A stretch of 51,773 nt of DNA from Candidatus Margulisiibacteriota bacterium (GCA_042563095.1 JBHPMS010000004.1:1-51773), one strand, 5' to 3'; positions 39,283 through 51,773 are shown, numbered from the stretch's first letter. The notes: generated by a model from the sequence alone, not told the origin. Made by a program: numbers and translations.

Positions 39283-39356
39283 AGCCTCCGGGCGGAGTCG
39301 AACCGCCGACCTAGTGCTTACCATGCACTCGCTCTGTCCGTCTGAGCTACAGAGGC
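39283..39356 (-). tRNA. tRNA-Thr(GGT), CCA not encoded
   Basis: GCCTCTG/CGGAGGC acceptor, GCTC/GAGC D stem, AGTGC-ATGGTAA-GCACT anticodon arm, GGCGG-TTCGACT-CCGCC T arm. Confidence 0.96.
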
Positions 39357-39958
39357 ATTATACAATCTTTTAGGGCCAGAGTGCACCACTCAAGAATTAT
39401 TTGCTTAAGTTTAGAGTTGCACACCAATAATGTTAATGTACCATATTTACTCTTTTTTTTGTAGCTGCCCCCTTTACTTTTTCTGATAAAAACATGCCGA
39501 ATTTGTTTTTTTGTTATTCCGATGTTTTTTGACCAATAAGAGATGGCCTTTGTTTTATTAACATCATCAAAAATATTCAATTCTGCCCTAATTTTGTTTT
39601 CTTTGACGCCACAAATTATTCTTAAAAAATACAAAAAGGTCTTTAGAATGTCTGGATTCGTATTTCCAAGGGCAACTTTGTGTTTCCCTTGTTTTGTTCC
39701 TTCTCCAAGGTAAAGACCTATTCCAATGAAAAAAAGCAATAATTGATAATGTGATTTTATGTTGTCAATGATTTTGAAGGGATCTCCATCGGGATTTCTC
39801 TTTTTATACGTGGCATCACTCCAGCTTCTAGCTTTTATTTCCCCCTTATTCATCCAATACCTAACCATCTTTTCTGAGACGCCCAGATTTTCACCAACTT
39901 CTTTTGCAGAAAATCCTTTCGAATATTCTTCTTTTATTTTATTAATTAATTTGTTCAT
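39347..39958 (-). CDS. HTH + single LAGLIDADG-like domain protein
   Basis: SAKEVGENLGVSEKMVRYW (HTH); IGLYLGEGTK...LGNTNPDILKTFLYFL; YWS; YGT. Confidence 0.7.
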   Translation of the reverse strand: MNKLINKIKEEYSKGFSAKEVGENLGVSEKMVRYWMNKGEIKARSWSDATYKKRNPDGDPFKIIDNIKSHYQLLLFFIGIGLYLGEGTKQGKHKVALGNTNPDILKTFLYFLRIICGVKENKIRAELNIFDDVNKTKAISYWSKNIGITKKQIRHVFIRKSKGGSYKKKSKYGTLTLLVCNSKLKQIILEWCTLALKDCIMPL

Positions 39959-40084: not shown

Positions 40085-40111
40085 CAAGTTTATCTCTTGT
40101 AAATACGATAT
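40085..40111 (+). promoter_or_regulatory. sigma28-like promoter CAAG-N15-TACGATAT
   Basis: Read directly. Confidence 0.55.
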
Positions 40112-40138
40112 AGTATAATAAAAGGGGAGGCGATAAAG

Positions 40139-40261
40139 ATGACAAAGTTAAGGGAAGTATTTAAAAAATTATTAAAGCTAGAAAAAGGGATTAAGTCTTT
40201 AAAGAAAGAAATTAAAGCTGCAAAGCTGGCGCAAATAAAGAAAAGAAAATTTAAGGCTTAA
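40139..40261 (+). CDS. Cationic peptide A, 40 aa: MTKLREVFKKLLKLEKGIKSLKKEIKAAKLAQIKKRKFKA
   Basis: SD GGGGAGG; second copy at 41677 differs at many synonymous positions. Confidence 0.75.
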   Translation: MTKLREVFKKLLKLEKGIKSLKKEIKAAKLAQIKKRKFKA

Positions 40262-40292
40262 TTCTTTTCGACCAATAGTTCAAAAGAGAATA

Positions 40293-41471
40293 TTAAACAA
40301 AAGCGCTTAAGAACTTTGAGGCGCCGATTACCCTGATATGCCCTTTGATATAATCGACATTTTCTTCGTTTACAACTTCAAAAACATGCGGGATTTTTAG
40401 CTTTAAACTAAAGTACTTAAGGCTTTCTGACATTGATTTTGATGAGCTTTTGGCCTCCGCACAAAACCACGGCTTATTATCGATGCAAACCAAAAAATCT
40501 ACCTCTCTTTGTTCTTTATCCCTAATATAATAGAGCCGGGCCTTATAGCCTTCGACATCACAGAGGAAATCGCAGAACTTTAAAAGATGAGACGCGATCA
40601 TGTTTTCAAATTTTATGTTTTCATCTTTTATTTCCGACCAGTCCCACAGGTAAGCCTTAGGTTCTTTCCGCAGGGCTTTTATAAGAGTGCTTTGAAAAGG
40701 ATATATTCTAAAATAATAAAAAAACTTTTCCAGTACGTTTGCCCATAATGTTATTGTCTTGTGGTTCACCTCCAAATCTTCGCGCAATGAATTTAAAGAG
40801 AAAAGAGACCCGATTTTATCAGGCAGAAGATCAACCATAATTTGCAATGCCGATAAATCCCGCAAGTTTTCAACGTCCCGGATATCCTCCTTGATTAGCC
40901 TGTCTGCTTTGGAGGCGTGCCAGCGGCGCAAAGACCTTTCGTTTTGTTTTATAAATACTTCGGGGAAACCGCCGAATTTAAAAAGCAAATCGAATATGTT
41001 TTTATTCTGTCCGTGATTATTTGTAAAGTCCAACTTTGTAAACGGAAGGGGATAAGCATCTTTGTTTAACAGCTCTCCCAGAGACAGCGGGTGCAGACGG
41101 TAAAAGTGATATCTGCCCATTAATGAATCCCCGCCTTTTCGATAAACATCCAGCCGCGCGCTTCCCGTTACGAGGATATTAAACCTGCTTTTGTTTTTGT
41201 CATATTCTCCTTTTATATAATTTTTCCACTTTTTATATTTATGAATTTCATCAAAGATTAAAAGCTTTTTATCGGCCGGGAGTTTGTCGGCAAGAATGGT
41301 TTTTCTGTCTGATTGTTTGTCCCAGTTCAGGCAGGTATAGTTGTTTAAATAGTGCTTTTCTCCGATTTGGTTTGCGAATGTAGTTTTCCCAACCTGGCGC
41401 GGTCCGGAGATAAAAGCCATTTTTTCTTTCAGGTCTTCTAAGACATACTTTTCTAAATATCGATTAATCAT
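40293..41471 (-). CDS. AAA_14 ATPase with DUF4143-like C-terminus
   Basis: GPRQVGKTT, FDEIHK, TGSARL, GGFPE, REVDF..EAK; start moved to ATG 41471 (SD AGGAG). Confidence 0.9.
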   Translation of the reverse strand: MINRYLEKYVLEDLKEKMAFISGPRQVGKTTFANQIGEKHYLNNYTCLNWDKQSDRKTILADKLPADKKLLIFDEIHKYKKWKNYIKGEYDKNKSRFNILVTGSARLDVYRKGGDSLMGRYHFYRLHPLSLGELLNKDAYPLPFTKLDFTNNHGQNKNIFDLLFKFGGFPEVFIKQNERSLRRWHASKADRLIKEDIRDVENLRDLSALQIMVDLLPDKIGSLFSLNSLREDLEVNHKTITLWANVLEKFFYYFRIYPFQSTLIKALRKEPKAYLWDWSEIKDENIKFENMIASHLLKFCDFLCDVEGYKARLYYIRDKEQREVDFLVCIDNKPWFCAEAKSSSKSMSESLKYFSLKLKIPHVFEVVNEENVDYIKGHIRVIGASKFLSAFV

Positions 41472-41505
41472 TTTGCCAAACTCCTTAACAACAAGCTTCC
41501 TACAA

Positions 41506-41554
41506 ATTATACCAAAGTATAAAAAATAGTCAAACAAATTACACCCGGGTATAA
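41506..41554 (-). promoter_or_regulatory. sigma70 promoter TTGACT-N16-TATAAT with two TTA(T/C)AC-N4-GTATAA boxes
   Basis: Boxes at 41507-41522 and 41539-41554. Confidence 0.7.
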
Positions 41555-41676
41555 AAACCGCGCGGAACGATATGGATGAGATTGAAAAAGAGCTGTATTA
41601 TGAAGGGACCAGGGCAAAAAGGTTGAAATTGCAGATTGTTTAATAAAGAGGGATGTGGTAATCTGCCAAAAAAGGG

Positions 41677-41808
41677 GTGATAAAAAAGGCTACGCTGAGG
41701 GAATTATTTAAAAAAATAATAAAACTGGAAAAAGGGATAAAATCATTAAAGAAAGAAATTAAAGCTGCAAAGCTGGCGCAGATTTAAAGTAGAAAATTTA
41801 AAGCTTAA
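41677..41808 (+). pseudogene. Decayed copy of cationic peptide A
   Basis: ATLRELFKKIIKLEKGIKSLKKEIKAAKLAQI*SRKFKA*; no ATG at the equivalent position (possible GTG at 41677), internal TAA at 41785. Confidence 0.75.
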
Positions 41809-42026
41809 CGTTTTTCGATTAACAACTCAAAAATATTCTTTTCGGCATATATTTTTCTGGTTTCTCCGTATGGAAGCGTAATCAATATTTTGTATTGCCA
41901 GAGATAAACGCCAACTAGAATGAATAGAATAAAGCCATAAACCGCAACTCTTTGTACGACTTTTACCTGCAGCTCCATATCTTCATCCAGGAAATTTTCA
42001 AGCCAGGCTGACAATTTTCTTTTCAT
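41805..42026 (-). CDS. Small single-TM protein coupled to the ABC exporter
   Basis: ATGA overlap with exporter stop; hydrophobic VAVYGFILFILVGVYLW. Confidence 0.65.
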   Translation of the reverse strand: MKRKLSAWLENFLDEDMELQVKVVQRVAVYGFILFILVGVYLWQYKILITLPYGETRKIYAEKNIFELLIEKR

Positions 42027-43774
42027 GAAACCTGCTCCTTCTGCTGTAGTTTGTAAAGAGAATAAAATTCCCCCTTATTTTTAATTAGTTCTTTGAATGA
42101 GCCTTTTTCATGCACTGCGTTTTCTTTAATCACAACGATTTGATCAGCGGTTTGGACTGACGAAATGCGGTGAGTGATTACAATTACAGTTTTGTCTTTT
42201 GTAAACTCTTTTAAATTGTTTAAGATATTATGCTCGCTTAAAACATCAAGTGCAGAAGTTGCTTCGTCCAGGATCAATATCTTTACATTGCGATAAACAG
42301 CCCTGGCAATCATCAGCCGTTGTTTCTGTCCGCCCGAAAGTCCAATCCCGGTCTCTCCGATAAAAGTGTCATACTGTTGCGGCAGGGTCATAATAAAGTC
42401 ATGGATTTCAGCACAATTACAGGCAGAGATTGCTCTATTGCGATCAACCTTTGTTCCATAGGAGCCATAAGTAATGTTTTCCAAAACTGTTCCAGTAAAT
42501 GGATTTGATCCCTGGGAAACAATCGAAATGTTAGAACGTAACGATATTAGTGATATATGTTTCATATTGTATTTGTCAATAATGATTTGTCCGTTAGAAG
42601 GTTCAATAAAGCGTTGCATCAGATCAATGATGGTGCTTTTTCCTGCTCCACTCATCCCTACAAAGGCGGTAGTGGTGCCAGGCTGTGCTTCAAAATTAAT
42701 ATTTTGCAGAGTCGGTTTTTTTGAGCCTTGATAACAGAAGGTTACATTTTCAAATTTAATTGTTCCATCCATTTTGAAAAGAATAAATGTTTTGCTCTCG
42801 TGGTAGGCTTCGGTTTCTGCTGAAAAAATTTCATCTACTCTTCTCATGGAGACCAGGCTGCTGACTACAGATTTGTAAATCGAGCCGAGGTCCATAAAAG
42901 GTTGGTGGACTTGCCCAAGGTATATGAGGATTGCCATAACTTCTCCAATAGTAATGTGTCCGGTAATTACGCGGTATCCTCCGTACCACCCGATGGCAGT
43001 AGTCCAAATTTTTATTATGCTGTTATCGAGAAAGGCATTCAACATCCCCATAAATGAATTTTCCCTGATCAGCCGAAACATCGCTTTTAATTTGTCGGCC
43101 AGGCGATTGGCTTCATAGATTCCCTGGTTAAATGATTTGATAGTTTTTATATCTCCAATTTTTTCTTGGTAGAAAGCATAGATTTCTGATTCTTTTTCTT
43201 GCGCCCGCTGGGCTACATCTGCAAAACGGCCAGCAAAAAGATGGGTTTGGATAAAGTAAAGCGGAATTCCAAGCAGGGCCATTAAGGTTAGTGTTTTATC
43301 GATTGTGAAACAGATGACCAGCAAGGCAATTAAGCGGAGTGTAGTTTGAATAATAACAGGGATTAGTTCGGCAATTGCGTCAACTACTACTTCAATATCA
43401 TCACTAATCCTAACGATCATATCCCCAACATGTTTTTCATTAATGGTTGCCATTGGAAGTTTTTGCAGGTGATCGTAAAATTTCTTTTTTAGATCAATGG
43501 AGAGCCGTTGGTGAATAAAATTATCTAAATAAGTAGTAATGTTGCCAAAAAGGGCATTAAAAAAGAAAATAATTAGTCCCAGGACCAACATTAGGTTTAA
43601 AAGATAAAGGTCCTGGTTGGGGTAAGCATAATCAATCAAGACTTTTGTTATCAGGGGCATAACCATTCCCAATAGGACGGTGATTCCGATCGAGATCAGG
43701 GAGATTACGCTTTTGTCCCAATAAGGTACAACGATTTGGACATAACGTTTTAATAATGGCCAATCTTTTTTCAT
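42023..43774 (-). CDS. ABC exporter, fused permease+ATPase (MsbA/peptide-exporter class, no C39 peptidase domain)
   Basis: TM domain, GMSGAGKST, LSGGQKQR, ILDEATSALD, H-loop. Confidence 0.95.
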   Translation of the reverse strand: MKKDWPLLKRYVQIVVPYWDKSVISLISIGITVLLGMVMPLITKVLIDYAYPNQDLYLLNLMLVLGLIIFFFNALFGNITTYLDNFIHQRLSIDLKKKFYDHLQKLPMATINEKHVGDMIVRISDDIEVVVDAIAELIPVIIQTTLRLIALLVICFTIDKTLTLMALLGIPLYFIQTHLFAGRFADVAQRAQEKESEIYAFYQEKIGDIKTIKSFNQGIYEANRLADKLKAMFRLIRENSFMGMLNAFLDNSIIKIWTTAIGWYGGYRVITGHITIGEVMAILIYLGQVHQPFMDLGSIYKSVVSSLVSMRRVDEIFSAETEAYHESKTFILFKMDGTIKFENVTFCYQGSKKPTLQNINFEAQPGTTTAFVGMSGAGKSTIIDLMQRFIEPSNGQIIIDKYNMKHISLISLRSNISIVSQGSNPFTGTVLENITYGSYGTKVDRNRAISACNCAEIHDFIMTLPQQYDTFIGETGIGLSGGQKQRLMIARAVYRNVKILILDEATSALDVLSEHNILNNLKEFTKDKTVIVITHRISSVQTADQIVVIKENAVHEKGSFKELIKNKGEFYSLYKLQQKEQVS

Positions 43775-43862
43775 TTTAGTAAGTATAATACTATTTTATT
43801 ATACAAGCAATAGAATAGGAGGAATATTGCTTTTTGCAGGGTTTAGATGTAGAATTATCAAA

Positions 43863-45817
43863 ATGCCAAATGAAGTTTTAAAAACTTCGGTTTTTATCCT
43901 GCTTTTTTCTTTTCTTTCTTTTACCGCTTCAGCCCAATTCCTGGATGTCCCATTAACCAGCCCGATCCATGACGCCATCAAACTTTTAGCGGATGAAGGG
44001 ATAGTGCGGGTTGGCGCTGATAAAATATTTAACCCGAACGCCCTTATCAACCGCTATGAAATGTCGGTTTTGATCTTCCGCACCCTGCGTAAGACGTTGG
44101 GAAAAGATATTCCTCCAGCCGAGCCGCAGACAATGAGCCGGTTTTTTAAAGATATACCAAAGGGGCATTATGCTTATGATTCTGTCAGCCGCTTATTTAA
44201 ATCCGGGGTCGTATCAAAACCGTATAAGTCGGTGTTTAAAGGGGACAGTTCGGTCAGCCGATACGAATTTTATACAGCGGCAGCTAAGATGCTAAAAAAA
44301 ACCGGCAAAGGGCTTAAAGCGTCCGACCCCCAAAAAAAAGATACGTTTATTCTGACCTTGATGTTTTGCACTGGGCTTATCCGTCTATAGTCAGCTTGAT
44401 CCGGGCAGGGTATGTTCCGGAGCCAAAAGATAATACCGAACTATTTGAGGGAGAGGATTGGGTTACCCGGAAGGAGGCGGCGGCGCTGCTCTATTTTGTG
44501 GTCAAACGGGCTGCCGGCAGCGAACAGAAGCCGCCGGCGGCAGAAAAAAAGAGCTATCCGGATGTCCCGGCCGGCCACTACGCCGCGGACGATATTGCGG
44601 AACTGCTGGAAGCGGGGATACTTACCCTGCATGCCGAAAAAAAGTTTAAAGGGGGAAGGCCGGTAACGCGCTACCAGGCGATCGACCTGTTGGCTCAGTT
44701 GTTGGAGCAAGTCTTGTCCGGACAGGGAGGACTTAAGCAGGCTGCTTATGACCTGCGCTACAAAGATGTTTCCCTGCTACATCCGGCTTATTTGGACTAC
44801 GGTTTTGATTTTTCAATGAGCAATACAGCCAGCTTGGCACAGGGAAACCTGACCCAAGCTTCGGCCAGCCAGTTAGCCAATATAGCGTTTGACCGGAGCC
44901 TGGGGAATACCGCCCGCGGTTATGTCAATCTAAGGGGTAGTTATAACTTTGGCCAGACCACCGCAATAAACTCTTCAATAACTCAGGCTTATCTGGTATA
45001 TAATGCTGATCCATTTCATCTCCAGGCCGGCCGATTTCCGCTCTATGAGACCTATGACCCGTTTGGCAACAGTATTTTTGTTGATTCATTGCAAGATATG
45101 GTAGTGGTGGAGGGGTCGAAAAACTTTGGCCGGATAATGGGAGCTGTTAGCAAACTGGTCAATGTGGGGATTTTACAGGATGATTCCAAGGCAGGATTGG
45201 TCCTCTATCAACCGGAGCTCCCCCTTGAGCTTAGCCTGGGGTTTGCTCTGGTGACAGACCCAACTGACCCGAGCGGGGCATACAGCAGCGCCCGGCTTCC
45301 ATGCAATATTACACAGCTCTATATTGGCGTGCGTGTTCCGGCCAACAAGAATGTTACCCTTACACTTGAAGGCGCACAGGTATCTTTGAGTAATGAGGAA
45401 ACCGTGCTTCCGTATATTGGATTTACCAATGTGACCGATACAAAAGCATATCAAGCTTCCATTTCTTTTATAACCGATGACCTCAAGAACCAGTACTCTT
45501 TAGGTTACCAGAATATCGGGGAGGATTATTATATGGCAGAACTGCTCGATCCGGCGGCGCTGGTAGGTGGAGGGCAGGGGACCAGCGCCTATTTATATAA
45601 ATGGAGAAACTATATCAATAACCGGGAACATATCGGTGTCGGAATAGAATATATCATGTCTGGAGGAGAGAACCTCCAGAACAAGATAAATCTGTTATAC
45701 AGCCGGAGAATGTCCGACCAGATATATTCCAAGGCGACCGTAACCAGGACTGATGTCAAGACCGCCGGCGGGCAGGGCAGCTGGGATATTACCGGGCTGT
45801 TGGCGGCCTATTTTTGA
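43863..45817 (+). pseudogene. Multi-SLH outer-membrane beta-barrel, copy 1; frameshifted at A8 (44332-44339)
   Basis: Two ORFs join via one extra A into a paralog of 47608-49989; four full SLH repeats; ends AAYF. Confidence 0.85.
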
Positions 45818-45819
45818 TG

Positions 45820-45846
45820 CAAGAAATGCGGGTAGAAACACGATAA
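45820..45846 (+). promoter_or_regulatory. sigma28-like promoter CAAG-N15-CACGATAA
   Basis: Read directly. Confidence 0.6.
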
Positions 45847-45866
45847 TATAAACAGAGGTGAGTGTT

Positions 45867-45980
45867 ATGAAACGCCAGAAACAAGTAAAGATATCTGAAG
45901 CGATCAAAAGGATCAGAAAAGAGGTCAAAGAGCGCAAAGTGTCACTTAAGCAATTGAAGCTGGACGGGCAGAGATCATAA
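45867..45980 (+). CDS. Cationic peptide B, 37 aa: MKRQKQVKISEAIKRIRKEVKERKVSLKQLKLDGQRS
   Basis: SD GAGGTG; alignable to peptides C and D. Confidence 0.7.
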   Translation: MKRQKQVKISEAIKRIRKEVKERKVSLKQLKLDGQRS

Positions 45981-46033
45981 ACTGAACAGATAAGCGGCTC
46001 TTCCTAAAAATCGGTTCAAAGATTTTGGTAAAC

Positions 46034-47241
46034 CTATAGATATTGCCAGGGGACCAGGGTGATTTTGTCGGTCAGCTTTTCCGGCCGGCTGCCCATAGTA
46101 ATTACATAACCCTTTTTTGCAACTTTTGGATAATCATCAAGAAAATTAATGAGCCCTTTTATTTGAGCTGTCCCAACCCTTTTGGACGCTTTGATCTCGA
46201 TCGGAATAACCTTGTTCCCAAGGTCAATAATACAATCAACCTCGGCTCCGGCGGAGGTGCGCCAATAATTAACCCGGTAGTCCTTGTTCAAAAGACGGAT
46301 CCTGCGAATTATCTCAAGCATTACCGCGTGCTCAAATAAAACTCCTTTTTGAGTATTTATAAGACCTTTAGTTAAAGGCAATCGGCAAATCGCGTTTCTG
46401 ACCCCAAGATCAAAAAAGTAGAAACGGGGAGAGGTTAAAAGGCGCTTGCGGGCCCTTTTTGTGTATGGTTCAATTCTTTCAACAATAAGCGTATCTACCA
46501 ATAAATTATAGAATTCCTTAACCGCAGGAGCGCTGACCCCGGATTCCATAGAAAGCCTGTTAAAATTCGGGCTGGTTCCGGACTCTTGTGCCGCCAGCTC
46601 TAAAAAACGCGAGAATGCGCCGATCTTTCTGCTGAGGGACTCCGCGCGGATCTCTTCTTCCAAATAGATATGGGAATATGCCTTAATAAAATCAGAACGG
46701 TCGTTATCGTTTTTTAAGGTGATGTTTTTCGGGAGCGACCCAAAAACCAGGCTTTTTTCAAAAGAATAGTCCGGCTTATTGATAACCACCGCAGTTCTGG
46801 TATATAATTTTCTTTTATCAATCCCAGCTCTCCATATGTAAACGGATCCATGTGAAAGTATTTTATTCTGCCGGGGAGCAGGTTGGTCCCTTTTCTTCTC
46901 AGTTTTCTGGCGGAAGAACCGGTAATTATAAAACTGGCCAGGTTTTTATCAAGCAGGTATTGGATAGCATCAAATAGTTCCGGTATCTTTTGGGCTTCAT
47001 CAATAAAAACCAGCGGCCTCTTTTTATTAGCCTCGATCTGGCGGATCAAGACAGCGGGGTCTTTTTCCAGCTCCATCCTGGTAGACGGGTTTTGCAGCAA
47101 AAAACTCATGCTGTTGCGTTTGTCTTTCAGCAAGCTTTCGATCAGGGTTGTTTTGCCGACCTGTCTGGGCCCCAGGATAAGAGCCGAGTGTCCCTGCTTT
47201 ATTAAACGCTTTAATTGCTTCTCTAGATTTCTTAATAACAC
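46034..47241 (-). pseudogene. Frameshifted AAA_14/DUF4143-like ATPase
   Basis: GPRQVGKTT/FIDEAQK in 46714-47241; GSLP...EVD..IEIK in 46034-46789; frame change near 46790. Confidence 0.85.
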
Positions 47242-47261
47242 TTTATATCTGCCTTGTAAAA

Positions 47262-47294
47262 ATAAAGTATACTTTATAATATCCCGGATGTCAA
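47262..47294 (-). promoter_or_regulatory. sigma70 promoter TTGACA-N17-TATACT with perfect palindrome ATAAAGTATACTTTAT over the -10
   Basis: Read directly. Confidence 0.7.
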
Positions 47295-47310
47295 GGGGGA
47301 GGAGCCTCAG

Positions 47311-47523
47311 TTACGCCAGCAATGCTGCCGGCAGCTCTTTAATTTCTTCTCGATTGGCAAAGGAGCTTTCAGGTCCGATTATCTCCGCTTCTCCAAAATA
47401 TACTTGAAGCGCCATACCAAGCAGTACGGTAATGCCAATAGATATTAAAGAAATTATACTTTTATCCCAGTAGGGGATTCCCAGTTGGATATAACGCCTT
47501 AATAGCGGCCAGTCTTTCTTCAT
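47311..47523 (-). pseudogene. Deleted remnant of a second ABC exporter
   Basis: First 37 aa (MKKDWPLL...SLISIGITVLLGM) closely match 42023-43774, then an unrelated tail. Confidence 0.85.
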
Positions 47524-47607
47524 GTTTTAGATAGTATATTATGTTTTAGGTGCAGTTTCAATGGGGGCTTGCATATAGGGTTTCATATAATGTATAATTT
47601 GCGAATT

Positions 47608-49989
47608 ATGAGAAAAATTATAACTTTGTTCCTATTATTATTGGTTTTTAGCCTGGCAGCTAACGCAGAATTTGTTGACGTCCCAAAACAAAATCCTCTA
47701 AGTGATGTTTTACAACTGTTATCGGTTGAAAGAGTAGTAAGCCCTGGCAGAGGGAGTAAGACTTTTAATCCTGATGCAAATATTACACGCTACGAAATGG
47801 CTGCAATATTATATCGAACTTTGAGGCGCATTCGAAGTATCCCCGCGGCTTCGACCACAACGATGAAGGTTCATTTTAAGGATATCAATCCCAAGCATTA
47901 TGCCTATGATGCTGTTCGCAGGCTACACAAAGCAGAGATTCTCTCAAAACCGAAGAAGAATAAGTTTATGGGGAATCAAAAAGTTAAACGCTATGAAATG
48001 GTTGCCGCTTTTGCCAAGCTCTTAAAAAAAACCCCGGTTTATAATATCTACGAAGTGCCGGAGGAATCGGTCTACATGTATAGTGATGTTAAACAGAATC
48101 ATTGGTCTTTTCCATACATGCTGGATTTAATAGAACGGGGCTATCTACCGGTGCCAGAGGGTGCACAGGATCATTTTAGCGGGGAGCAGTACGCCACCAG
48201 AAAAGAAGTTGCGGTCCTCTCTTACTTTTTAATGAGAAAGATGACAGAGTTGCGCAGAAATATTTCTAGTAAAAAGACCGCAACGATTGCTGCTCAAGCC
48301 AGCCTTCCCCAATCGTATCGTGATGTGCCAAACAGCCATGCTGTGGCTAGTGATATCTACGAATTAGCCGAAGCTGGAATTTTAAGTCCAGGCAAAGGAG
48401 ATCTTTTTAGGGGGAATGATTCTCTCACTCGTTACGAAGCGATGGAGTTGTTGACCCGGATATTAGAATCAGTTTTGGGACCCTTAACTGAGGCCGATTA
48501 TGATCTAGGATACAAAGATGTTTCGGTTCTCAATTCTTCTTATCCTTCCATTCAAAAACTAATAAAATTGGGAATCTTGCCAATGGGGAACAATCAAGAA
48601 TTGTTCAACGGGCAAAATATGGTAACCCGCTACCAAATGATTTATTCTTTCTTTCTTCCGATCGAAGATATTTTGACCGGAGTAACTGTTTTTCAGAAGG
48701 CCAGCCCAAAGATTATTTATCACGATGTCCCAAAAGATCATTTTACTTATCCGGTTATTCAAAAACTAATTGGCCTGGGAACTTTACGGGGCGGAGCAAA
48801 TTATACATTTAATGGGAACGATTATGTAGGTAGATATGAGGCGGCCCATTTTATTACAAACTTGCTAAAGACGGTTTACACCACAATTGAGGATGTAAAA
48901 GCAATTGAAACTCCAGAATATTTGGATTATGGATTTGATTTTTCGTTGACCACGACTTTAGATTATTTGCAAAGGGAGAACACAAAATCAAGTGGGGGAA
49001 CGATGAGCCGTGCCTATGCTTATCAAACAGCCACACTTATCTTTAAGGGGAATGCGGGGAAAGATATTAGCGGGTACCTGAATCTAAAGACCTCCTACTA
49101 TTTTGGTCAGTTGACCACCCCCAGTACCAGCTTCTCCCTGGGATATTTAACTTTAAAAAGGAGACCGCTCACAATTCAAGCTGGAAGGACTGCTTATTAC
49201 AATGGGTATGATCCATTTGGAAATAGTTTGTTTGCAGATACTAGCAGTTCAGATTTAATTATTGTACAAGGAGCAAACCAGCTATTAAAAGGTTCGTTTG
49301 CAGTTGGGAAGTTGATCTATTTGGCAAATGATATATCATTTGATTCCAACATTGCTTCATTATATATAACACCACGCCTTAAACTCTTTAATCGGGCAGA
49401 ATTTTCATTTGGTTTAAACATGATGAATGATCCGCTTGATCCGAGTGGTTTATACACCGGTGGTATTTTACCAACCCGAATTACCCATCTTTATGCCGGA
49501 TCGAGAATTTCTCTAAATGATCGCTTTAAACTAAATCTGGAGGGAGCAAGTGTAGCCTATAGTAATGAAAGTGTAGTTTTACCTTACGTCGGATATTTAA
49601 CTAAAAAAGATTTAACTGCTTTTCAAACCGCATTAACTTATTACTCTCCAGATTATAAGCGACAACTATCAATTGGCTACCAGAGTATCGGGGATGATTT
49701 TTACATGGCACAATTCATCAGCCCGGGGGTTCAGGTTGGAGGAGGGCAGGGTACTACCGCATATCTGATCAAATATAGAAATTATTTTACAGGTGGAAAT
49801 TATGTTGGTCTATTGTTAGAGAATATTTCCAGGGATGGAACCAATACCACCAATCGCTACAATCTATTATACAATTTACGCCTAGCAGATCGAGCCTATC
49901 TCCGCTTTGATTTGATTAGAACAGATGACAATACCAGCAGTAAACGGAGCAGTTGGAACCTAACCGGAAAGACCTATATTTATTTTTAA
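47608..49989 (+). CDS. Multi-SLH (six repeats) outer-membrane beta-barrel, copy 2 (intact)
   Basis: Signal peptide; six (F/Y)xD(V/I)...R(Y/K)(E/Q) repeats; beta-rich C-terminus ending YIYF; start moved to ATG 47608. Confidence 0.88.
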   Translation: MRKIITLFLLLLVFSLAANAEFVDVPKQNPLSDVLQLLSVERVVSPGRGSKTFNPDANITRYEMAAILYRTLRRIRSIPAASTTTMKVHFKDINPKHYAYDAVRRLHKAEILSKPKKNKFMGNQKVKRYEMVAAFAKLLKKTPVYNIYEVPEESVYMYSDVKQNHWSFPYMLDLIERGYLPVPEGAQDHFSGEQYATRKEVAVLSYFLMRKMTELRRNISSKKTATIAAQASLPQSYRDVPNSHAVASDIYELAEAGILSPGKGDLFRGNDSLTRYEAMELLTRILESVLGPLTEADYDLGYKDVSVLNSSYPSIQKLIKLGILPMGNNQELFNGQNMVTRYQMIYSFFLPIEDILTGVTVFQKASPKIIYHDVPKDHFTYPVIQKLIGLGTLRGGANYTFNGNDYVGRYEAAHFITNLLKTVYTTIEDVKAIETPEYLDYGFDFSLTTTLDYLQRENTKSSGGTMSRAYAYQTATLIFKGNAGKDISGYLNLKTSYYFGQLTTPSTSFSLGYLTLKRRPLTIQAGRTAYYNGYDPFGNSLFADTSSSDLIIVQGANQLLKGSFAVGKLIYLANDISFDSNIASLYITPRLKLFNRAEFSFGLNMMNDPLDPSGLYTGGILPTRITHLYAGSRISLNDRFKLNLEGASVAYSNESVVLPYVGYLTKKDLTAFQTALTYYSPDYKRQLSIGYQSIGDDFYMAQFISPGVQVGGGQGTTAYLIKYRNYFTGGNYVGLLLENISRDGTNTTNRYNLLYNLRLADRAYLRFDLIRTDDNTSSKRSSWNLTGKTYIYF

Positions 49990-49998
49990 AATTGCACG

Positions 49999-50025
49999 CA
50001 AGTTTTTCGGGACTTGCTGCGATAG
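49999..50025 (+). promoter_or_regulatory. sigma28-like promoter CAAG-N15-TGCGATAG
   Basis: Read directly. Confidence 0.6.
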
Positions 50026-50057
50026 TAGCTGTAGTACGACAAAAGGAGGAGATTGCC

Positions 50058-50210
50058 ATGAGCAACAAAAAGGATACAAAGGTTTCTTCTGGCTACCAGA
50101 GTAAGGATTCCACACTAAAGGATATCAAGCTTTCAAAAGTTCTTCGCAAGCTCAGCGTAGTTGCATCAAAAAAACCCAAGTTTAGGTCGTTTAAGCAGTA
50201 CAGTTCATAG
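50058..50210 (+). CDS. Cationic peptide C, 50 aa: MSNKKDTKVSSGYQSKDSTLKDIKLSKVLRKLSVVASKKPKFRSFKQYSS
   Basis: SD AGGAGG; ATG 50058. Confidence 0.75.
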   Translation: MSNKKDTKVSSGYQSKDSTLKDIKLSKVLRKLSVVASKKPKFRSFKQYSS

Positions 50211-50222
50211 GAGGAATAAAAA

Positions 50223-51221
50223 ATGAGAAAGGGAATACTTATTTGTTTGGCTTTTTTTCTGATGGCAAGTGTTGGTAATGCTTATGAGACGATGATTATT
50301 GAAAGCAATCCTACGACCGGTGTTCTTCAAGAAGACCAGAGCACTGTTACATTGGATCCTTCAGGCAGTACAACGATTAATTATGATGCTCTTGGGCAGG
50401 ATCCAAAATACCTGGCGACAGTAGATGGAGGAGCAGTAATACCAGATTCTTCGGACGGGAGTACAAATCCCGGGACAATTCCTGATATTACAGCTCCAGT
50501 AGAAGATACTCCTTTGGGATCGGGCGGGGAAGGGAAGCTGGTGACACCAGCGAATACTGGTATTAGTTTGACTACCCCAACTATTAGCGGAGCGGTCGAA
50601 GACCAATTGCCGCAATTAAGAGATGTTCAAGATGTTGAAGCTATAGTTCCTTCTGGCGGGAACACTACGCCGCTTGTAACTTTTGATCCTAAAAAATTTA
50701 CGACACTTCCAACAATTGATCCCAAAAAGGTCAATACTAATCCGCCTCTTAATATTGTTCCCGTTACAAAGTTCATTGCCGAAGATGCTGAAACACCTCC
50801 AGTGGATGCAGATAAAGAGGCGGGTCCGGTTCTGCCATCCGCTTCAGACGCCAATCGAACAAGCAGGATTACGAGAAATCCGGATACTGATGCTGTACAA
50901 ACTCCGGCTCAGGCAAGAGATTTGGATACCGAAGCATTACAAAGGGCAAATGATCCTGGTGCCGGCGGCAAGGTTGTTGTCTACAAAGACCAAGAATCTG
51001 GTAAAACTATAGTTTATAAAGGCTCAAGCGCGGAGAGGACATCAAAGAGAGTATGGAAGTATCATCCTAATACTTCCCCAGAGTGGGCACAAAAAGAATA
51101 CTCTCCAGCAGAGAGAGCGCAAATCGAGCAGATAGAACTAGCTAGAAAGAAAACTGCGAAAAAGAAAATTGCCGCGAAGTACAAATATAAACAAGACCTT
51201 TATAAATTATTGAAGAGATAG
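50223..51221 (+). CDS. Secreted low-complexity Pro/Thr/Asp-rich protein with basic C-terminal helix
   Basis: SD AGGAGG; Sec signal peptide; compositional bias. Confidence 0.8.
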   Translation: MRKGILICLAFFLMASVGNAYETMIIESNPTTGVLQEDQSTVTLDPSGSTTINYDALGQDPKYLATVDGGAVIPDSSDGSTNPGTIPDITAPVEDTPLGSGGEGKLVTPANTGISLTTPTISGAVEDQLPQLRDVQDVEAIVPSGGNTTPLVTFDPKKFTTLPTIDPKKVNTNPPLNIVPVTKFIAEDAETPPVDADKEAGPVLPSASDANRTSRITRNPDTDAVQTPAQARDLDTEALQRANDPGAGGKVVVYKDQESGKTIVYKGSSAERTSKRVWKYHPNTSPEWAQKEYSPAERAQIEQIELARKKTAKKKIAAKYKYKQDLYKLLKR

Positions 51222-51237
51222 AGGGGGGAGAGTAATA

Positions 51238-51354
51238 ATGAAAAAGGTTAAATTAGTTGATGTCATAAAAAAGATTAGTTCAGCAGCAAAGAAGAACAAG
51301 ATTAAGTTCCGCCAGCTGCAGGCGATCAAGAAAGGGGATAATTCCAAAGCCTAG
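51238..51354 (+). CDS. Cationic peptide D, 38 aa: MKKVKLVDVIKKISSAAKKNKIKFRQLQAIKKGDNSKA
   Basis: G-rich SD; alignable to peptides B and C. Confidence 0.75.
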   Translation: MKKVKLVDVIKKISSAAKKNKIKFRQLQAIKKGDNSKA

Positions 51355-51447
51355 ACTAAATCTGAGAAACCACTTGACAAAACTATAATTCTAATATATA
51401 TTACATCCATGATATAGGACAAATATGTCCAATAATGGAGACATAAT

Positions 51448-51773
51448 ATGATTAGGGAAGAATTACAAACGAGAGCAAATGCAGAAGGCCTGCCTTTAAA
51501 AATTATCGAGAAAGAAGCTTTGCAGATTTATATTTTGGGTGAGTTTTTTTCCCTGCCAGAATCATCCCATTTTACCTTTCAAGGAGGAACCTGTTTACGG
51601 TTAGTCTATGGAGGCGTGCGCTATTCTGAAGATCTTGATTTTGTGACAACTGCAAAAGAGAATGATATTGCATGTTTAATCAAGAAACTTTCCTCCTCTT
51701 TAGGGCAGGTAGGGCCTTTATTTGAGGGGAGGATCGAAATCTTAAAGCAAAAAACATCAGAAACATTTTGCCG
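51448..51773 (+). CDS. AbiEii-type nucleotidyltransferase (type IV TA toxin family), truncated by window end
   Basis: FQGGTCLRLVYGGVRYSEDLDF; TTGACA at 51374 and GGACA-aata-TGTCC palindrome at 51417-51430. Confidence 0.88.
   Translation, partial: MIREELQTRANAEGLPLKIIEKEALQIYILGEFFSLPESSHFTFQGGTCLRLVYGGVRYSEDLDFVTTAKENDIACLIKKLSSSLGQVGPLFEGRIEILKQKTSETFC

What the first reader, a model, noticed from the sequence alone, without database searches (positions are those of the whole stretch)
40085..51354. Candidate undescribed system: small cationic peptides + ABC exporter + multi-SLH outer-membrane barrel, in a duplicated module
Seen: peptide A, ATPase, peptide A' (decayed), TM protein, ABC exporter <> SLH barrel, peptide B, ATPase (pseudo), ABC remnant <> SLH barrel, peptide C, secreted protein, peptide D. 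In both modules the exporter and barrel are divergent across a similar ~85-nt spacer, and a peptide gene directly follows the barrel. Established: MsbA-class exporters move peptides; SLH domains tether outer-membrane barrels to the cell wall; a terminal Phe is the BAM signal. Inference: this is a dedicated peptide secretion or handling locus in a diderm, for example leaderless bacteriocin-like peptides or signals. No HlyD/TolC or modifying enzymes are seen in the window. I do not recognise this architecture as a named system.
Basis: partly seen in the sequence, partly recalled or inferred. Interest (0 to 1): 0.85.

Follow-up and report, generated by a model that had tools for sequence, protein, structure and literature searches.

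The report
Saganbacterial SLH-barrel, mini-protein and exporter module
An uncultivated Saganbacterium carries a conserved, undescribed gene set: an ABC exporter, a tiny membrane protein, an unusual wall-anchored outer-membrane barrel, and small lysine-rich proteins predicted to dock onto the barrel's wall-binding domains.

Summary
Every listed gene is present at the stated coordinates.

The small ORFs look like real genes:
- 12 of 13 family members have a Shine-Dalgarno site and an ATG start.
- Between two relatives, differences fall 3/1/14 by codon position.

The organism is a Candidatus Saganbacteria MAG, about 52% complete. Four gene families share one patchy distribution across 65 genomes of the class:
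- an ABCB-type exporter (11 of 65)
- a 73-aa single-pass membrane protein (11 of 65)
- a six-SLH, 18-strand OmpM-like barrel (12 of 65)
- a 37-54-aa leaderless cationic mini-protein (9 convincing of 65)

The mini-protein gene follows the barrel gene in 8 of 11 relatives and occurs nowhere else in them. Only 11 family members turned up among 5.8 billion proteins.

A controlled complex prediction places the mini-protein's conserved helix on the barrel-proximal SLH triad, not in the barrel (ipSAE 0.71; best control 0.00).

My reading is a dedicated envelope module in which the exporter delivers a signal-less SLH-binding subunit. That step is inferred, not shown.

"Bacteriocin" is not. Relatives often have radical-SAM genes beside the exporter, so its cargo stays open.

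The window copy is rearranged: a partial duplication, two frameshifts, and DUF4143 ATPase genes at both junctions.

The parts
42023..43774 (-). ABCB-type (type IV fold) half-transporter, 583 aa. Orthologues in most relatives carry an extra C-terminal Sigma70_r4-like HTH of about 80 aa that is absent here.
   Evidence: Pfam ABC_membrane 1.6e-39 and ABC_tran 1.5e-29. No NCBIfam cut-off is reached: MsbA 373/602, HlyB-type 358/726. Orthologues at 54% identity or more occur in 11 of 65 class genomes; the next best hits are 34-37%. The G003 orthologue has Sigma70_r4 at 26.9 bits.
41805..42026 (-). TM73: a 73-aa single-pass membrane protein. Its start overlaps the ABC stop by 4 nt, and it always follows the exporter gene.
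   Evidence: No Pfam family. Profile A4 matches 11 of 65 class genomes, the same genomes that hold the ABC orthologue, and matches nothing convincing in the other 81 genomes of the phylum. 63 proteins in 5.77e9, all 'hypothetical'.
47569..49989 (+). Intact OmpM-like outer-membrane protein (SLH2): signal peptide, six SLH repeats forming two triads, an 18-strand barrel, and a terminal Phe.
   Evidence: Pfam SLH 1.3e-28. Six TR[YK][EQ] motifs. AF2 models have pLDDT 80.6 (barrel) and 77.9 (full length), with 18 strands. Foldseek hits are OmpM1, AlgE and Occ/OprD. The barrel domain occurs in 12 of 65 class genomes.
43827..45817 (+). Second barrel paralogue (SLH1). It is frameshifted at an A8 run (44332-44339), and the region has GC 0.47-0.50 against about 0.40 elsewhere.
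   Evidence: Two overlapping frames. Read across the A-run, the sequence continues the SLH repeat. 38-48% identical to SLH2. In the tree it sits as (SLH2,(SLH1,(G003,G001))) with 97/96 support. GC profile.
45867..45980 (+). pepB: 37-aa leaderless Lys-rich mini-protein, starting 49 nt after the SLH1 stop.
   Evidence: GAGGTG SD plus ATG. 50% identical to the G003 and G001 orthologues, which lie after their barrels. 46.4 bits to the family profile.
50058..50210 (+). pepC: 50-aa mini-protein, starting 68 nt after the SLH2 stop. It was the partner chain in the complex test.
   Evidence: AAGGAGG SD plus ATG. Family profile 35.2 bits. Predicted to dock on SLH2 residues 248-432 (793-aa numbering from window 47608) through its residues 20-48: ipSAE 0.71, best control 0.00.
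51238..51354 (+). pepD: 38-aa mini-protein paralogue, not next to a barrel (16 nt after the orphan 332-aa gene).
   Evidence: SD plus ATG. 45.3 bits to the family profile.
40139..40261 (+). pepA: 40-aa mini-protein, the most divergent member. It lies inside one arm of a 157-nt direct repeat.
   Evidence: SD plus ATG. 30.2 bits to a profile that includes pepA itself. Repeat D1 is 40129-40285 and 41676-41832 at 80% identity.
41677..41787 (+). pepA': decayed copy of pepA in the other repeat arm.
   Evidence: GTG start, weak SD, and a stop four codons early.
47311..47523 (-). Remnant of a second exporter gene. Only 47407-47523 is homologous. It is divergent from SLH2.
   Evidence: 39 aa at 79% identity to the ABC N-terminus. 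About 75% nucleotide identity.
40293..41537 (-). AAA_14/DUF4143 ATPase 1, flanked by the 157-nt repeat. Probably an insertion and not part of the system.
   Evidence: Pfam. Repeats. In G001 the TM73 gene is followed directly by tRNA-Thr(GGT), whereas here about 2.4 kb intervenes before the same tRNA at 39283-39356.
46034..47241 (-). AAA_14/DUF4143 ATPase 2, split over two frames, sitting at the truncation point of the exporter remnant. Not part of the system.
   Evidence: Pfam AAA_14 on 46714-47241 and DUF4143 on 46034-46789.
50223..51221 (+). 332-aa protein with an N-terminal signal-like segment. An orphan, not part of the conserved set.
   Evidence: No Pfam or NCBIfam family. Found in 1 of 65 class genomes, its own.

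Best explanation
The region encodes a Saganbacteria-specific envelope module of four gene families.

(1) An ABCB-type half-transporter in the inner membrane.
(2) Its constant 70-aa single-pass membrane partner (TM73).
(3) An atypical OmpM-like outer-membrane protein. Its periplasmic part is six SLH repeats in two triads, joined directly to an 18-strand barrel.
(4) A leaderless 37-54-aa lysine-rich helical mini-protein, translated from its own ribosome-binding site just after the barrel gene.

Shown:
- The four families share one phyletic pattern and cluster together.
- The mini-protein genes are under purifying selection.
- They occur only beside this barrel.

Predicted: the mini-protein lays the hydrophobic face of its conserved helix (consensus [VI]-K-[IL]-x-[DE]-[AV]-[IL]-x-x-[IL]) against the long helices of the barrel-proximal SLH triad.

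Inferred:
- The SLH array is periplasmic and the mini-protein has no signal peptide. The exporter with TM73 is therefore the likely route across the inner membrane.
- The mini-protein then acts as a bound subunit or ligand of the tether-porin, changing its wall attachment or gating the barrel. It does not act as a free toxin.

The window copy is a rearranged version: a partial second module (exporter remnant, second barrel, second peptide), two extra peptide paralogues, frameshifts in one barrel and one ATPase, DUF4143 ATPase genes at both junctions, and loss of the exporter's HTH tail.
For: Phyletic profile in 65 class genomes:
- barrel domain 12
- TM73 11 (two of these, G005 and G046, were not in the profile)
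- ABC orthologue at 54% identity or more 11, with a gap down to 34-37%
- peptide 10 at E<=0.05, of which 9 are barrel genomes and 1 is a weak hit inside a 452-aa frame
All fall in the same genomes.

Linkage:
- ABC and TM73 lie on the fetched barrel stretch in 8 of 11 relatives. In one more they are 13 kb away on the same contig, and in one on another contig.
- The peptide gene is next after the barrel in 8 of 11 relatives and after both window barrels. The same holds in further metagenome contigs.

Coding evidence: an SD in 12 of 13 peptide genes, and codon-position differences of 3/1/14.

Rarity: 11 proteins in 5.77e9 and 4 among 1.84e9 representatives.

Complex test: ipSAE 0.71, 0.70 and 0.72, with the best of 3 controls at 0.00. 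That mark was reached by 58 of 80 solved complexes and 2 of 110 mismatched pairs; these counts hold only roughly, because my own alignments were used. The runs agree in at least 71% of contacts. Partner pLDDT is 56-59. The interface is SLH2 residues 248-432 and peptide residues 20-48. These include the family's conserved hydrophobic positions.

The SLH triad 2 is the most conserved part of the protein (column majority 0.62, against 0.48 for triad 1 and 0.54 for the barrel). It is net acidic in 8 of 10 orthologues, while all 12 peptides carry +6 to +13.

The barrels' signal peptides lack a twin-arginine motif, as read. I therefore take export to be Sec-type and unfolded, which is an inference.
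Against: - No experiment or expression data exist. The docking is one model's confidence, with a modest partner pLDDT of 56-59.
- Interface columns are not more conserved than the rest of triad 2 (0.60 against 0.63, Mann-Whitney p=0.67).
- Triad 2 is net basic in G003 (+8) and G001 (+10), so charge complementarity fails in 2 of 10 orthologues.
- Two near-complete relatives have exporter, TM73, receiver and barrel but no detectable peptide: G015 (94% complete) and G052 (97%). The peptide may therefore be dispensable or replaceable.
- Nothing shows that the exporter moves the peptide. In relatives it sits beside B12- and SPASM-type radical-SAM genes, and in G046 also beside a U32-like peptidase and GT2 genes. 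That suggests a different, tailored cargo.
- The window's two frameshifts could be assembly errors or real decay. No reads could be checked.
Confidence: 0.45

Rival explanations
1. The mini-proteins are leaderless secreted peptides (bacteriocin-like or signals). The ABC exporter moves them across the inner membrane and the SLH barrel moves them across the outer membrane. The SLH triad would then be only a transient periplasmic docking site for cargo.
For: The co-inheritance and clustering are the same as for the best explanation. The peptides are leaderless and cationic. The window holds four intact paralogues where relatives have one, a pattern typical of diversifying effectors. The barrel resembles the substrate-specific 18-strand exporters and channels AlgE and Occ.
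Against: The peptides are very hydrophilic (hydrophobic fraction 0.26-0.42) and lack Trp. From recall, that is unlike the leaderless bacteriocins I know. No immunity-like gene is conserved. The predicted interface is large, about 25 of 50 residues and 143-161 contacts, and lies on the SLH array, with no barrel residue among the confident (<8 A) contacts listed. That fits a stable subunit better than a passing cargo. No HlyD-type adaptor was found.
Confidence: 0.2
2. The exporter and barrel move a radical-SAM-tailored product, either a RiPP or a modified lipid or glycan. The mini-protein is only an accessory of the barrel (assembly factor, plug or regulator). The window copy has lost the biosynthetic genes.
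For: B12-binding radical-SAM genes sit next to the exporter in G003, G005 (three to four copies), G015, G028 (three) and G046. Their best NCBIfam hit is ApyD at 239 bits, below the 750 cut-off. SPASM maturase-like genes (DynA-like 189/450, PapB-like 215/340) lie next to the barrel or exporter in G001, G003, G046, G052, L043 and L050. G046 also has three GT2 genes and a U32-like peptidase between exporter and barrel. ApyD is a peptide beta-methylase (PMC10635010, passages read).
Against: No radical-SAM gene lies within 8 kb in G043 or in the window. The enzyme types and numbers vary from genome to genome. No conserved precursor was found: the 74-aa Cys-bearing ORF in G001 is unique, and it does not match the peptide profile (hhalign probability 0.3%). 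All rSAM hits are below family cut-offs.
Confidence: 0.2
3. The mini-proteins are cytoplasmic, for instance nucleic-acid-binding or translational regulators of the barrel operon. On this reading the predicted docking is an artefact.
For: The peptides have a strong positive charge, low hydrophobicity and no export signal. The interface is no more conserved than its surroundings.
Against: A regulator would not be expected to score 0.71 against 0.00 for controls through its conserved hydrophobic face. There is no match to any DNA- or RNA-binding family: the best Pfam E-values are 0.03-0.18. The strict one-to-one pairing with this one barrel subfamily, among the many SLH proteins in each genome, argues against a general regulator.
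Confidence: 0.1
4. The small ORFs are chance reading frames in AT- and Lys-codon-rich spacers of a decaying, mis-assembled region.
For: There are two frameshifted genes, a gene remnant and repeats in an 11-kb stretch of a 52%-complete MAG.
Against: The ORFs have SD sites, third-position-biased divergence, and a conserved position and motif across 7 of the class's 13 families and in independent assemblies. Public annotations call several of them as genes.
Confidence: 0.03

Closest known systems
OmpM-type outer-membrane tether/porins (Veillonella parvula OmpM1, Deinococcus SlpA)
   Same: An N-terminal periplasmic SLH region plus a C-terminal beta-barrel ending in Phe. OmpM1 is the top Foldseek hit of the barrel-only model (E 1e-10); with the full-length model it ranks 25th, behind OccD2 and AlgE. 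OmpM homologues were already reported in Saganbacteria (10.1101/2021.05.31.446380, passages read).
   Different: OmpM1 is a trimer with one SLH per chain, a triple coiled-coil stalk and a 16-strand barrel (PMC10628300, passages read). This protein has six SLH repeats in one chain, no coiled-coil stalk in the model, and 18 strands. It also comes with a cognate mini-protein and an exporter, which the passages I read do not describe for OmpM.
Type I secretion and peptide-exporting ABC systems (HlyB/HlyD/TolC, PCAT bacteriocin exporters)
   Same: An ABCB-fold half-transporter clustered with an outer-membrane barrel and small peptides. HlyB and PCAT1 are among the solved relatives, at 269 and 259 bits.
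   Different: There is no membrane-fusion protein and no TolC in the locus, and no C39 peptidase domain or double-glycine leader. HlyB-type and bacteriocin-ABC models score below their cut-offs. The outer-membrane partner is an SLH-anchored porin-like barrel.
Leaderless peptide export (leaderless bacteriocins; staphylococcal PSM with the Pmt exporter). Recalled, not tested.
   Same: Small signal-less helical peptides with a dedicated ABC exporter.
   Different: Those systems are in monoderm organisms, their peptides are far more hydrophobic, and no SLH barrel is involved. Here the predicted destination is a periplasmic domain.
Small single-pass partners of transporters (e.g. AcrZ with AcrB). 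Recalled.
   Same: TM73 is a roughly 70-aa bitopic protein always encoded with its transporter.
   Different: There is no sequence relation. No binding test of TM73 with the exporter was run.
18-strand substrate-specific barrels (AlgE alginate exporter, Occ/OprD channels)
   Same: Strand number and overall barrel shape. TM-score normalised to the query is up to 0.69.
   Different: Sequence identity is only about 10%. There is no SLH region in those proteins, and no evidence here of polysaccharide export.
Radical-SAM RiPP clusters with exporters (dynobactin or darobactin type, ranthipeptides, aminopyruvatide)
   Same: Relatives' loci hold SPASM and B12 radical-SAM genes whose best NCBIfam hits are DynA, PapB and ApyD.
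   Different: All scores are below the cut-offs. The window has none of these genes. No precursor was identified. The mini-proteins lack Trp, and only 1 of 12 has a Cys.

Membership tests
OmpM (outer-membrane attachment porin) | SLH domain present (definition used in 10.1101/2021.05.31.446380: SLH plus a beta-barrel porin) | tested here: met
   Pfam SLH 1.3e-28 on SLH2, and SLH also on both halves of SLH1. Six TR[YK][EQ] motifs.
OmpM (outer-membrane attachment porin) | C-terminal beta-barrel | tested here: met
   AF2 pLDDT 80.6, pTM 0.76, 18 strands. OmpM1 is the top Foldseek hit.
OmpM (outer-membrane attachment porin) | Single SLH per chain, joined by a coiled-coil stalk to a 16-strand barrel, assembling as a trimer (VpOmpM1, PMC10628300) | tested here: not met
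   Six SLH repeats in two blocks, short low-confidence linkers with no long coiled coil, and 18 strands. The oligomeric state was not tested.
MsbA lipid A flippase | Score above the NCBIfam equivalog cut-off | tested here: not met
   TIGR02203 373.4 bits against 602, and NF008381 317.9 against 867.
MsbA lipid A flippase | Housekeeping distribution, present in essentially all genomes of the clade | tested here: not met
   Orthologues occur in 11 of 65 class genomes. A separate MsbA-like gene at 34% identity lies on contig C7.
Type I secretion system | HlyB-type ABC protein above the family cut-off | tested here: not met
   TIGR01846 358 bits against 725.6.
Type I secretion system | Membrane-fusion protein (HlyD) and a TolC-like OEP in or with the locus | tested here: not met
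   There is no HlyD_D23 hit in the assembled genome, which is 52% complete. The only OEP hit is on contig C46.
Peptidase-containing bacteriocin ABC exporters (PCAT) | N-terminal C39 peptidase domain and a double-glycine leader on the cargo | tested here: not met
   The exporter begins directly with its transmembrane domain at residue 24 of ABC_membrane. TIGR01193 scores 302 against 524. The peptides have no GG leader.
Radical-SAM RiPP biosynthetic cluster | Maturase gene(s) next to a precursor peptide | tested here: inconclusive
   There are none in the window. In relatives, rSAM genes are present but below all equivalog cut-offs, and no recurrent precursor was found.
Leaderless bacteriocins | Antimicrobial activity, a hydrophobic or aromatic-rich helical fold, and an immunity gene | not testable with these tools
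   Composition argues against membership: hydrophobic fraction 0.26-0.42 and no Trp. Activity is untested.

The most novel reading that the evidence does not exclude
SLH domains are known only as binders of cell-wall polymers. Here they would have a dedicated protein ligand: a signal-less cationic mini-protein. A private ABC exporter with its 70-aa partner would pump it into the periplasm, and it would clamp the barrel-proximal SLH triad of an atypical OmpM. The result would be a switchable outer-membrane tether or gate built from parts with no described counterpart.
Probability: 0.3. Interest if true: 0.85.

Novelty: new variant of a known kind. Interest (0 to 1): 0.7.

Why it matters
OmpM-type proteins are thought to be the ancestral way diderm Terrabacteria fasten their outer membrane to the wall. 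How that attachment is regulated is unknown.

If confirmed, this module would add three things:
- a protein ligand for SLH domains
- a non-Sec route for a periplasmic subunit
- a TolC- and HlyD-free pairing of an ABC exporter with an outer-membrane barrel

It also defines two unannotated small-protein families: the mini-protein (11 known sequences) and TM73 (63). Routine MAG annotation labels them 'hypothetical' or misses them.

The proposal can be tested with synthetic peptide and a recombinant SLH triad, even though the organisms are uncultivated.

Tried and rejected
No earlier findings were seen.
- Sequencing runs: none was listed for 43700-51400 and no RNA holder was listed. The two frameshifts and expression could therefore not be checked, and read laying was not used.
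- Terminator and promoter scan: 15 terminator-like sites against 13.4 expected. Uninformative.
- Interface conservation test: negative. Interface columns 0.60 against 0.63 for the rest of triad 2, p=0.67.
- The 74-aa Cys-bearing ORF upstream of the PapB-like rSAM in G001 was considered as a longer family member or precursor. hhalign against the peptide profile gave probability 0.3%. Rejected as a family member.
- Pfam at E<=1 on the peptides, TM73 and the 332-aa protein gave nothing meaningful. The best peptide hits were E 0.03-0.18.
- ESM Atlas on TM73: the best feature score was 0.79, below the level the tool calls a lead. No family.
- Foldseek with the full-length model returned only barrel matches, so it could not confirm the SLH-triad fold.
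- Own-genome tblastn for the relatives' rSAM genes and CheY-like receiver found no orthologue-level rSAM hit. The best was 28% identity at the end of contig C30. The best receiver hit was 47% on C40. The genome is only 52% complete, so absence is not shown.
- Peptide search in the G015, G052 and G059 loci at E<=10: nothing.
- I considered the ATPases as system parts and rejected this. They are absent from all 11 relatives' loci and sit at rearrangement junctions.
- Literature: searches found no paper describing an SLH barrel with a leaderless peptide and an ABC exporter, or this locus in Saganbacteria. Only the held library was searched. Supplementary files were not consulted, so the OmpM survey's supplementary tables might list these proteins.

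Full report
**What is in the window.**

The order on the window is:
- tRNA-Thr(GGT) 39283-39356 (-)
- an HTH protein 39347-39958 (-)
- pepA 40139-40261 (+)
- an AAA_14/DUF4143 ATPase 40293-41537 (-)
- pepA' 41677-41787 (+)
- a 73-aa single-pass membrane protein, TM73, 41805-42026 (-)
- an ABC_membrane plus ABC_tran exporter 42023-43774 (-)
- SLH barrel 1 in two frames (43827-44390 and 44366-45817)
- pepB (ATG 45867 to 45980)
- a second DUF4143 ATPase in two frames (46714-47241 and 46034-46789)
- a 39-aa remnant of a second exporter gene (47407-47523, -)
- the intact SLH barrel 2, 47569-49989
- pepC 50058-50210
- a 332-aa signal-peptide protein 50223-51221
- pepD 51238-51354
- an AbiEii fragment running off the end

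The barrel-1 frameshift sits at an A8 run (44332-44339). Read one base further, the frame continues with a normal SLH repeat. The window is contig C34 of a 1.0-Mb, 80-contig, 52%-complete MAG. Record titles of its relatives place it in Candidatus Saganbacteria, phylum Margulisiibacteriota.

**The small ORFs are genes.**

Twelve of 13 family members, in the window and in relatives, have a GGAGG-like Shine-Dalgarno site 5-10 nt before an ATG. Only pepA' does not.

Over the 27-codon core, the G003 and G001 orthologues share 11 identical codons, differ synonymously in 11 and non-synonymously in 5. Differences by codon position are 3/1/14. That is the signature of selection on a protein.

The shared core is [VI]-K-[IL]-x-[DE]-[AV]-[IL]-x-x-[IL] in the window's family. 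In other families it reads [ST]-L-[KR]-[KE]-A-L. All 12 aligned peptides are net +6 to +13. Their hydrophobic fraction is 0.26-0.42, none has Trp, and one has a Cys. None shows a signal-peptide-like segment, judged by eye.

**Conserved neighbourhood.**

Full-length relatives of barrel 2 exist in 11 other genomes of the class.

The exporter orthologue and TM73 are placed as follows:
- On the fetched barrel stretch in 8 of the 11 relatives: G001, G003, G004, G015, G028, G043, G049 and G052.
- 13 kb away on the same contig in G046.
- On another contig in the fragmented G005.
- Not found in G059, which is 84% complete and has its barrel at a contig end.

Orientation varies. The genes are divergent in the window's family, convergent in most others, and co-oriented in G004.

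Outside the window's family, a 126-aa CheY-like receiver follows TM73. Most exporter orthologues are about 80 aa longer and carry a Sigma70_r4-like HTH at the C-terminus (26.9 bits). The window's exporter and G052's lack it.

A mini-protein gene is the next gene after the barrel in 8 of 11 relatives. Gaps are 12-52 nt in six of them, 295 nt in G001, and 267 nt with a zinc-ribbon ORF between in G004. The same arrangement appears in further metagenome contigs L043, L048 and L050, the last of them weak.

G015 and G052 have the other four genes but no detectable peptide.

**Phyletic profile.**

Counts in the 65 genomes of the class:

| Gene family | Genomes |
|---|---|
| Barrel domain | 12 |
| TM73 profile | 11 |
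| Exporter orthologue (54-70% identity; next best 34-37%) | 11 |
| Peptide profile at E<=0.05 | 10 |

Of the 10 peptide matches, nine are barrel genomes and one is a weak hit (E 0.011) inside a 452-aa frame.

The peptide and TM73 profiles match their own member sequences by construction. The informative results are these:
- TM73 was found in two genomes that had not contributed to the profile.
- No barrel-less genome has any of the three.
- No relative has a second peptide copy, while the window has four intact copies plus one decayed copy, all within 11 kb.

In 146 genomes of the phylum, TM73 appears only in those class members plus one weak hit.

Among 5.77 billion proteins the peptide profile found 11 sequences and the TM73 profile found 63. 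All named ones are 'hypothetical', from Margulis- or Saganbacteria, apart from one binned as Methylococcales. An exhaustive HMM search of 1.84 billion representatives found only 4 peptide members.

The 332-aa protein occurs only in this genome. The DUF4143 ATPases are absent from all relatives' loci.

**The barrel protein.**

SLH2 has six SLH repeats. In numbering from window 47608, their TR[YK][EQ] motifs fall at residues 60, 127 and 197, then at 274, 340 and 408.

AlphaFold2 on my alignments gives:
- for the barrel domain, pLDDT 80.6 and pTM 0.76, with 18 strands
- for the full length, pLDDT 77.9, with two helical SLH blocks separated by low-confidence linkers (217-234 and 429-440) and strands from 442 to 792

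With the barrel-only model Foldseek ranks V. parvula OmpM1 first by E-value; AlgE and Occ/OprD channels, all 18-stranded, score the higher TM values (up to 0.69). With the full-length model OccD2 and AlgE lead and OmpM1 ranks 25th.

OmpM is defined as SLH plus a barrel and was already noted in Saganbacteria (10.1101/2021.05.31.446380, passages read). VpOmpM1 is a trimer with one SLH per chain, a triple coiled-coil stalk and 16 strands (PMC10628300, passages read).

This protein is therefore an OmpM-like variant. Six SLH repeats in one chain would give two intramolecular triads; that SLH repeats assemble in threes is recalled from S-layer protein structures and was not tested here. There is no stalk.

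**Peptide-barrel test.**

I folded full-length SLH2 (alignment of 10 sequences) with pepC (alignment of 12) against controls.
- ipSAE was 0.71, 0.70 and 0.72.
- The best of three controls scored 0.00.
- The mark was reached by 58 of 80 solved complexes and 2 of 110 mismatched pairs. These counts hold only roughly, because my own alignments were used.
- The runs agree in at least 71% of contacts.
- Partner pLDDT was 56-59.

The model supports binding. It does not show it.

The interface is not in the barrel. It comprises SLH2 residues 248-432, meaning the first helices of repeats 4 and 5 and the C-terminal halves of the long helices of repeats 4, 5 and 6. On the peptide it comprises residues 20-48. 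The tightest contacts are at L25, V28, L29, L32 and F42, which are the conserved hydrophobic positions of the family.

Triad 2 is the most conserved part of the protein. It is net acidic in 8 of 10 orthologues, with G003 and G001 as the exceptions. The interface columns are no more conserved than the rest of the triad.

I know of no solved SLH-peptide complex, so memory of one is unlikely to explain the pass. That statement rests on recall.

**Mechanism proposed.**

Shown: four co-inherited, clustered gene families, and real mini-protein genes tied to this barrel.

Predicted: the mini-protein binds the barrel-proximal SLH triad.

Inferred:
- An even number of strands puts the N-terminal SLH array in the periplasm.
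- The barrels' signal peptides lack a twin-arginine motif, so I infer that export is Sec-type and unfolded.
- The mini-protein has no signal peptide, so it needs another route across the inner membrane. The exporter and TM73, which are never found without the barrel, are the obvious candidates.

I therefore read the set as a dedicated module that delivers an SLH-binding subunit to an atypical tether-porin. There it may alter wall attachment or gate the channel. Confidence in the whole chain is about 0.45. Confidence that the four genes form one functional unit is much higher.

**Rivals.**

The window's four paralogues would fit it. It is weakened by the peptides' hydrophilicity and by the large, stable-looking interface.

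A second rival is that the exporter's true cargo is a radical-SAM-tailored product.
- B12-binding rSAM genes abut the exporter in G003, G005, G015, G028 and G046.
- SPASM rSAM genes abut the barrel or exporter in G001, G003, G046, G052, L043 and L050.
- G046 adds GT2 and U32-like genes.

All of these score below family cut-offs. Their best hits are DynA-, PapB- and ApyD-like; ApyD is a peptide beta-methylase (PMC10635010, passages read). They vary in type and number, they are absent within 8 kb in G043 and in the window, and no recurrent precursor was found.

Weaker rivals are a cytoplasmic regulator role and chance ORFs.

**History of the window copy.**

In G001 the TM73 gene is followed directly by tRNA-Thr(GGT) and then EF-Tu. 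The window has the same tRNA, but about 2.4 kb intervenes. That stretch holds pepA', ATPase 1, pepA and the HTH gene. ATPase 1 is flanked by a 157-nt direct repeat at 80% identity. The repeat carries pepA or pepA' together with the last codons of TM73.

The second module keeps only 39 codons of its exporter, cut off where ATPase 2 begins.

In the barrel tree the topology is (SLH2,(SLH1,(G003,G001))) with 97/96 support, and the SLH1 region has GC 0.47-0.50. The two barrels therefore either diverged before those genera split, or one of them came from a related lineage.

**Verdict.**

There is no support for a bacteriocin, and there is a new, testable prediction that the peptide is a ligand of the SLH array.

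Literature searches found no description of it. Supplementary files were not seen.

Noticed in passing
window 40293-41537 and 46034-47241; repeats at 40129-40285 and 41676-41832: AAA_14/DUF4143 ATPase genes sit at both rearrangement junctions of the locus. One is flanked by a 157-nt direct repeat at 80% identity. The other begins where the second exporter copy is cut off. tblastn shows at least seven further copies in this half-genome: contig C1 (three), C9, C10, C22, and window 13295-14644. This suggests the gene family is mobile, or inserts by duplicative recombination.
   Followed up: partly
L021 14800-15060, L022 16150-16395 (exporter orthologues in relatives): Most orthologues of the exporter carry a C-terminal Sigma70_r4-like helix-turn-helix of about 80 aa fused to the ABC ATPase domain (Pfam 26.9 bits). 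I do not recall an ABC exporter fused to a sigma-factor DNA-binding region. The window's exporter and G052's lack it.
   Followed up: partly
L023 5499-5879, L024 1225-1611, L026 12080-12460, L040 10578-10958: Outside the window's family, a 126-aa single-domain CheY-like receiver always follows the TM73 gene. No histidine kinase was seen in the fetched loci.
   Followed up: partly
L022 12716-12940 (-): A 74-aa ORF with a Cys-bearing tail lies directly upstream of a PapB-like SPASM radical-SAM gene, in the same operon direction as the barrel and mini-protein in G001. It is a possible RiPP precursor. It does not match the mini-protein profile.
   Followed up: partly
L040 2895-8220 (G005) and L049 7829-12404: Three to four tandem paralogous B12-binding radical-SAM genes lie divergent from the exporter. 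They are 42-45% identical to G003's B12 rSAM in G005 (L040) and 27-35% in L049.
   Followed up: no
window 43827-46000: The frameshifted barrel paralogue and pepB lie in a stretch of GC 0.47-0.50, against about 0.36-0.41 for their neighbours. This hints at acquisition from another lineage.
   Followed up: partly
window 44332-44339: The barrel-1 frameshift is in an A8 homopolymer. It could be assembly error, decay or slipped-strand phase variation. No reads were available to tell.
   Followed up: partly
window 39347-39958 (-): A 203-aa protein has an N-terminal HTH and a weak LAGLIDADG_3-like stretch (E 0.12). Its 3' end overlaps the tRNA-Thr gene by 10 nt. It is absent at the same position in G001.
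   Followed up: no
window 51448-51771 (+): The N-terminal part of an AbiEii-type nucleotidyltransferase (type IV toxin-antitoxin / abortive-infection family) runs off the contig end (Pfam 9.2e-11).
   Followed up: no
L021 6995-8335 (+): In G003, an IS-like gene (HTH plus weak rve_3) is inserted between the barrel and the radical-SAM genes.
   Followed up: no
protein P0046: One TM73 homologue is labelled as coming from a 'Methylococcales bacterium' MAG. All other named homologues are from Margulis- or Saganbacteria. This may be a mis-binned contig or a transfer.
   Followed up: no
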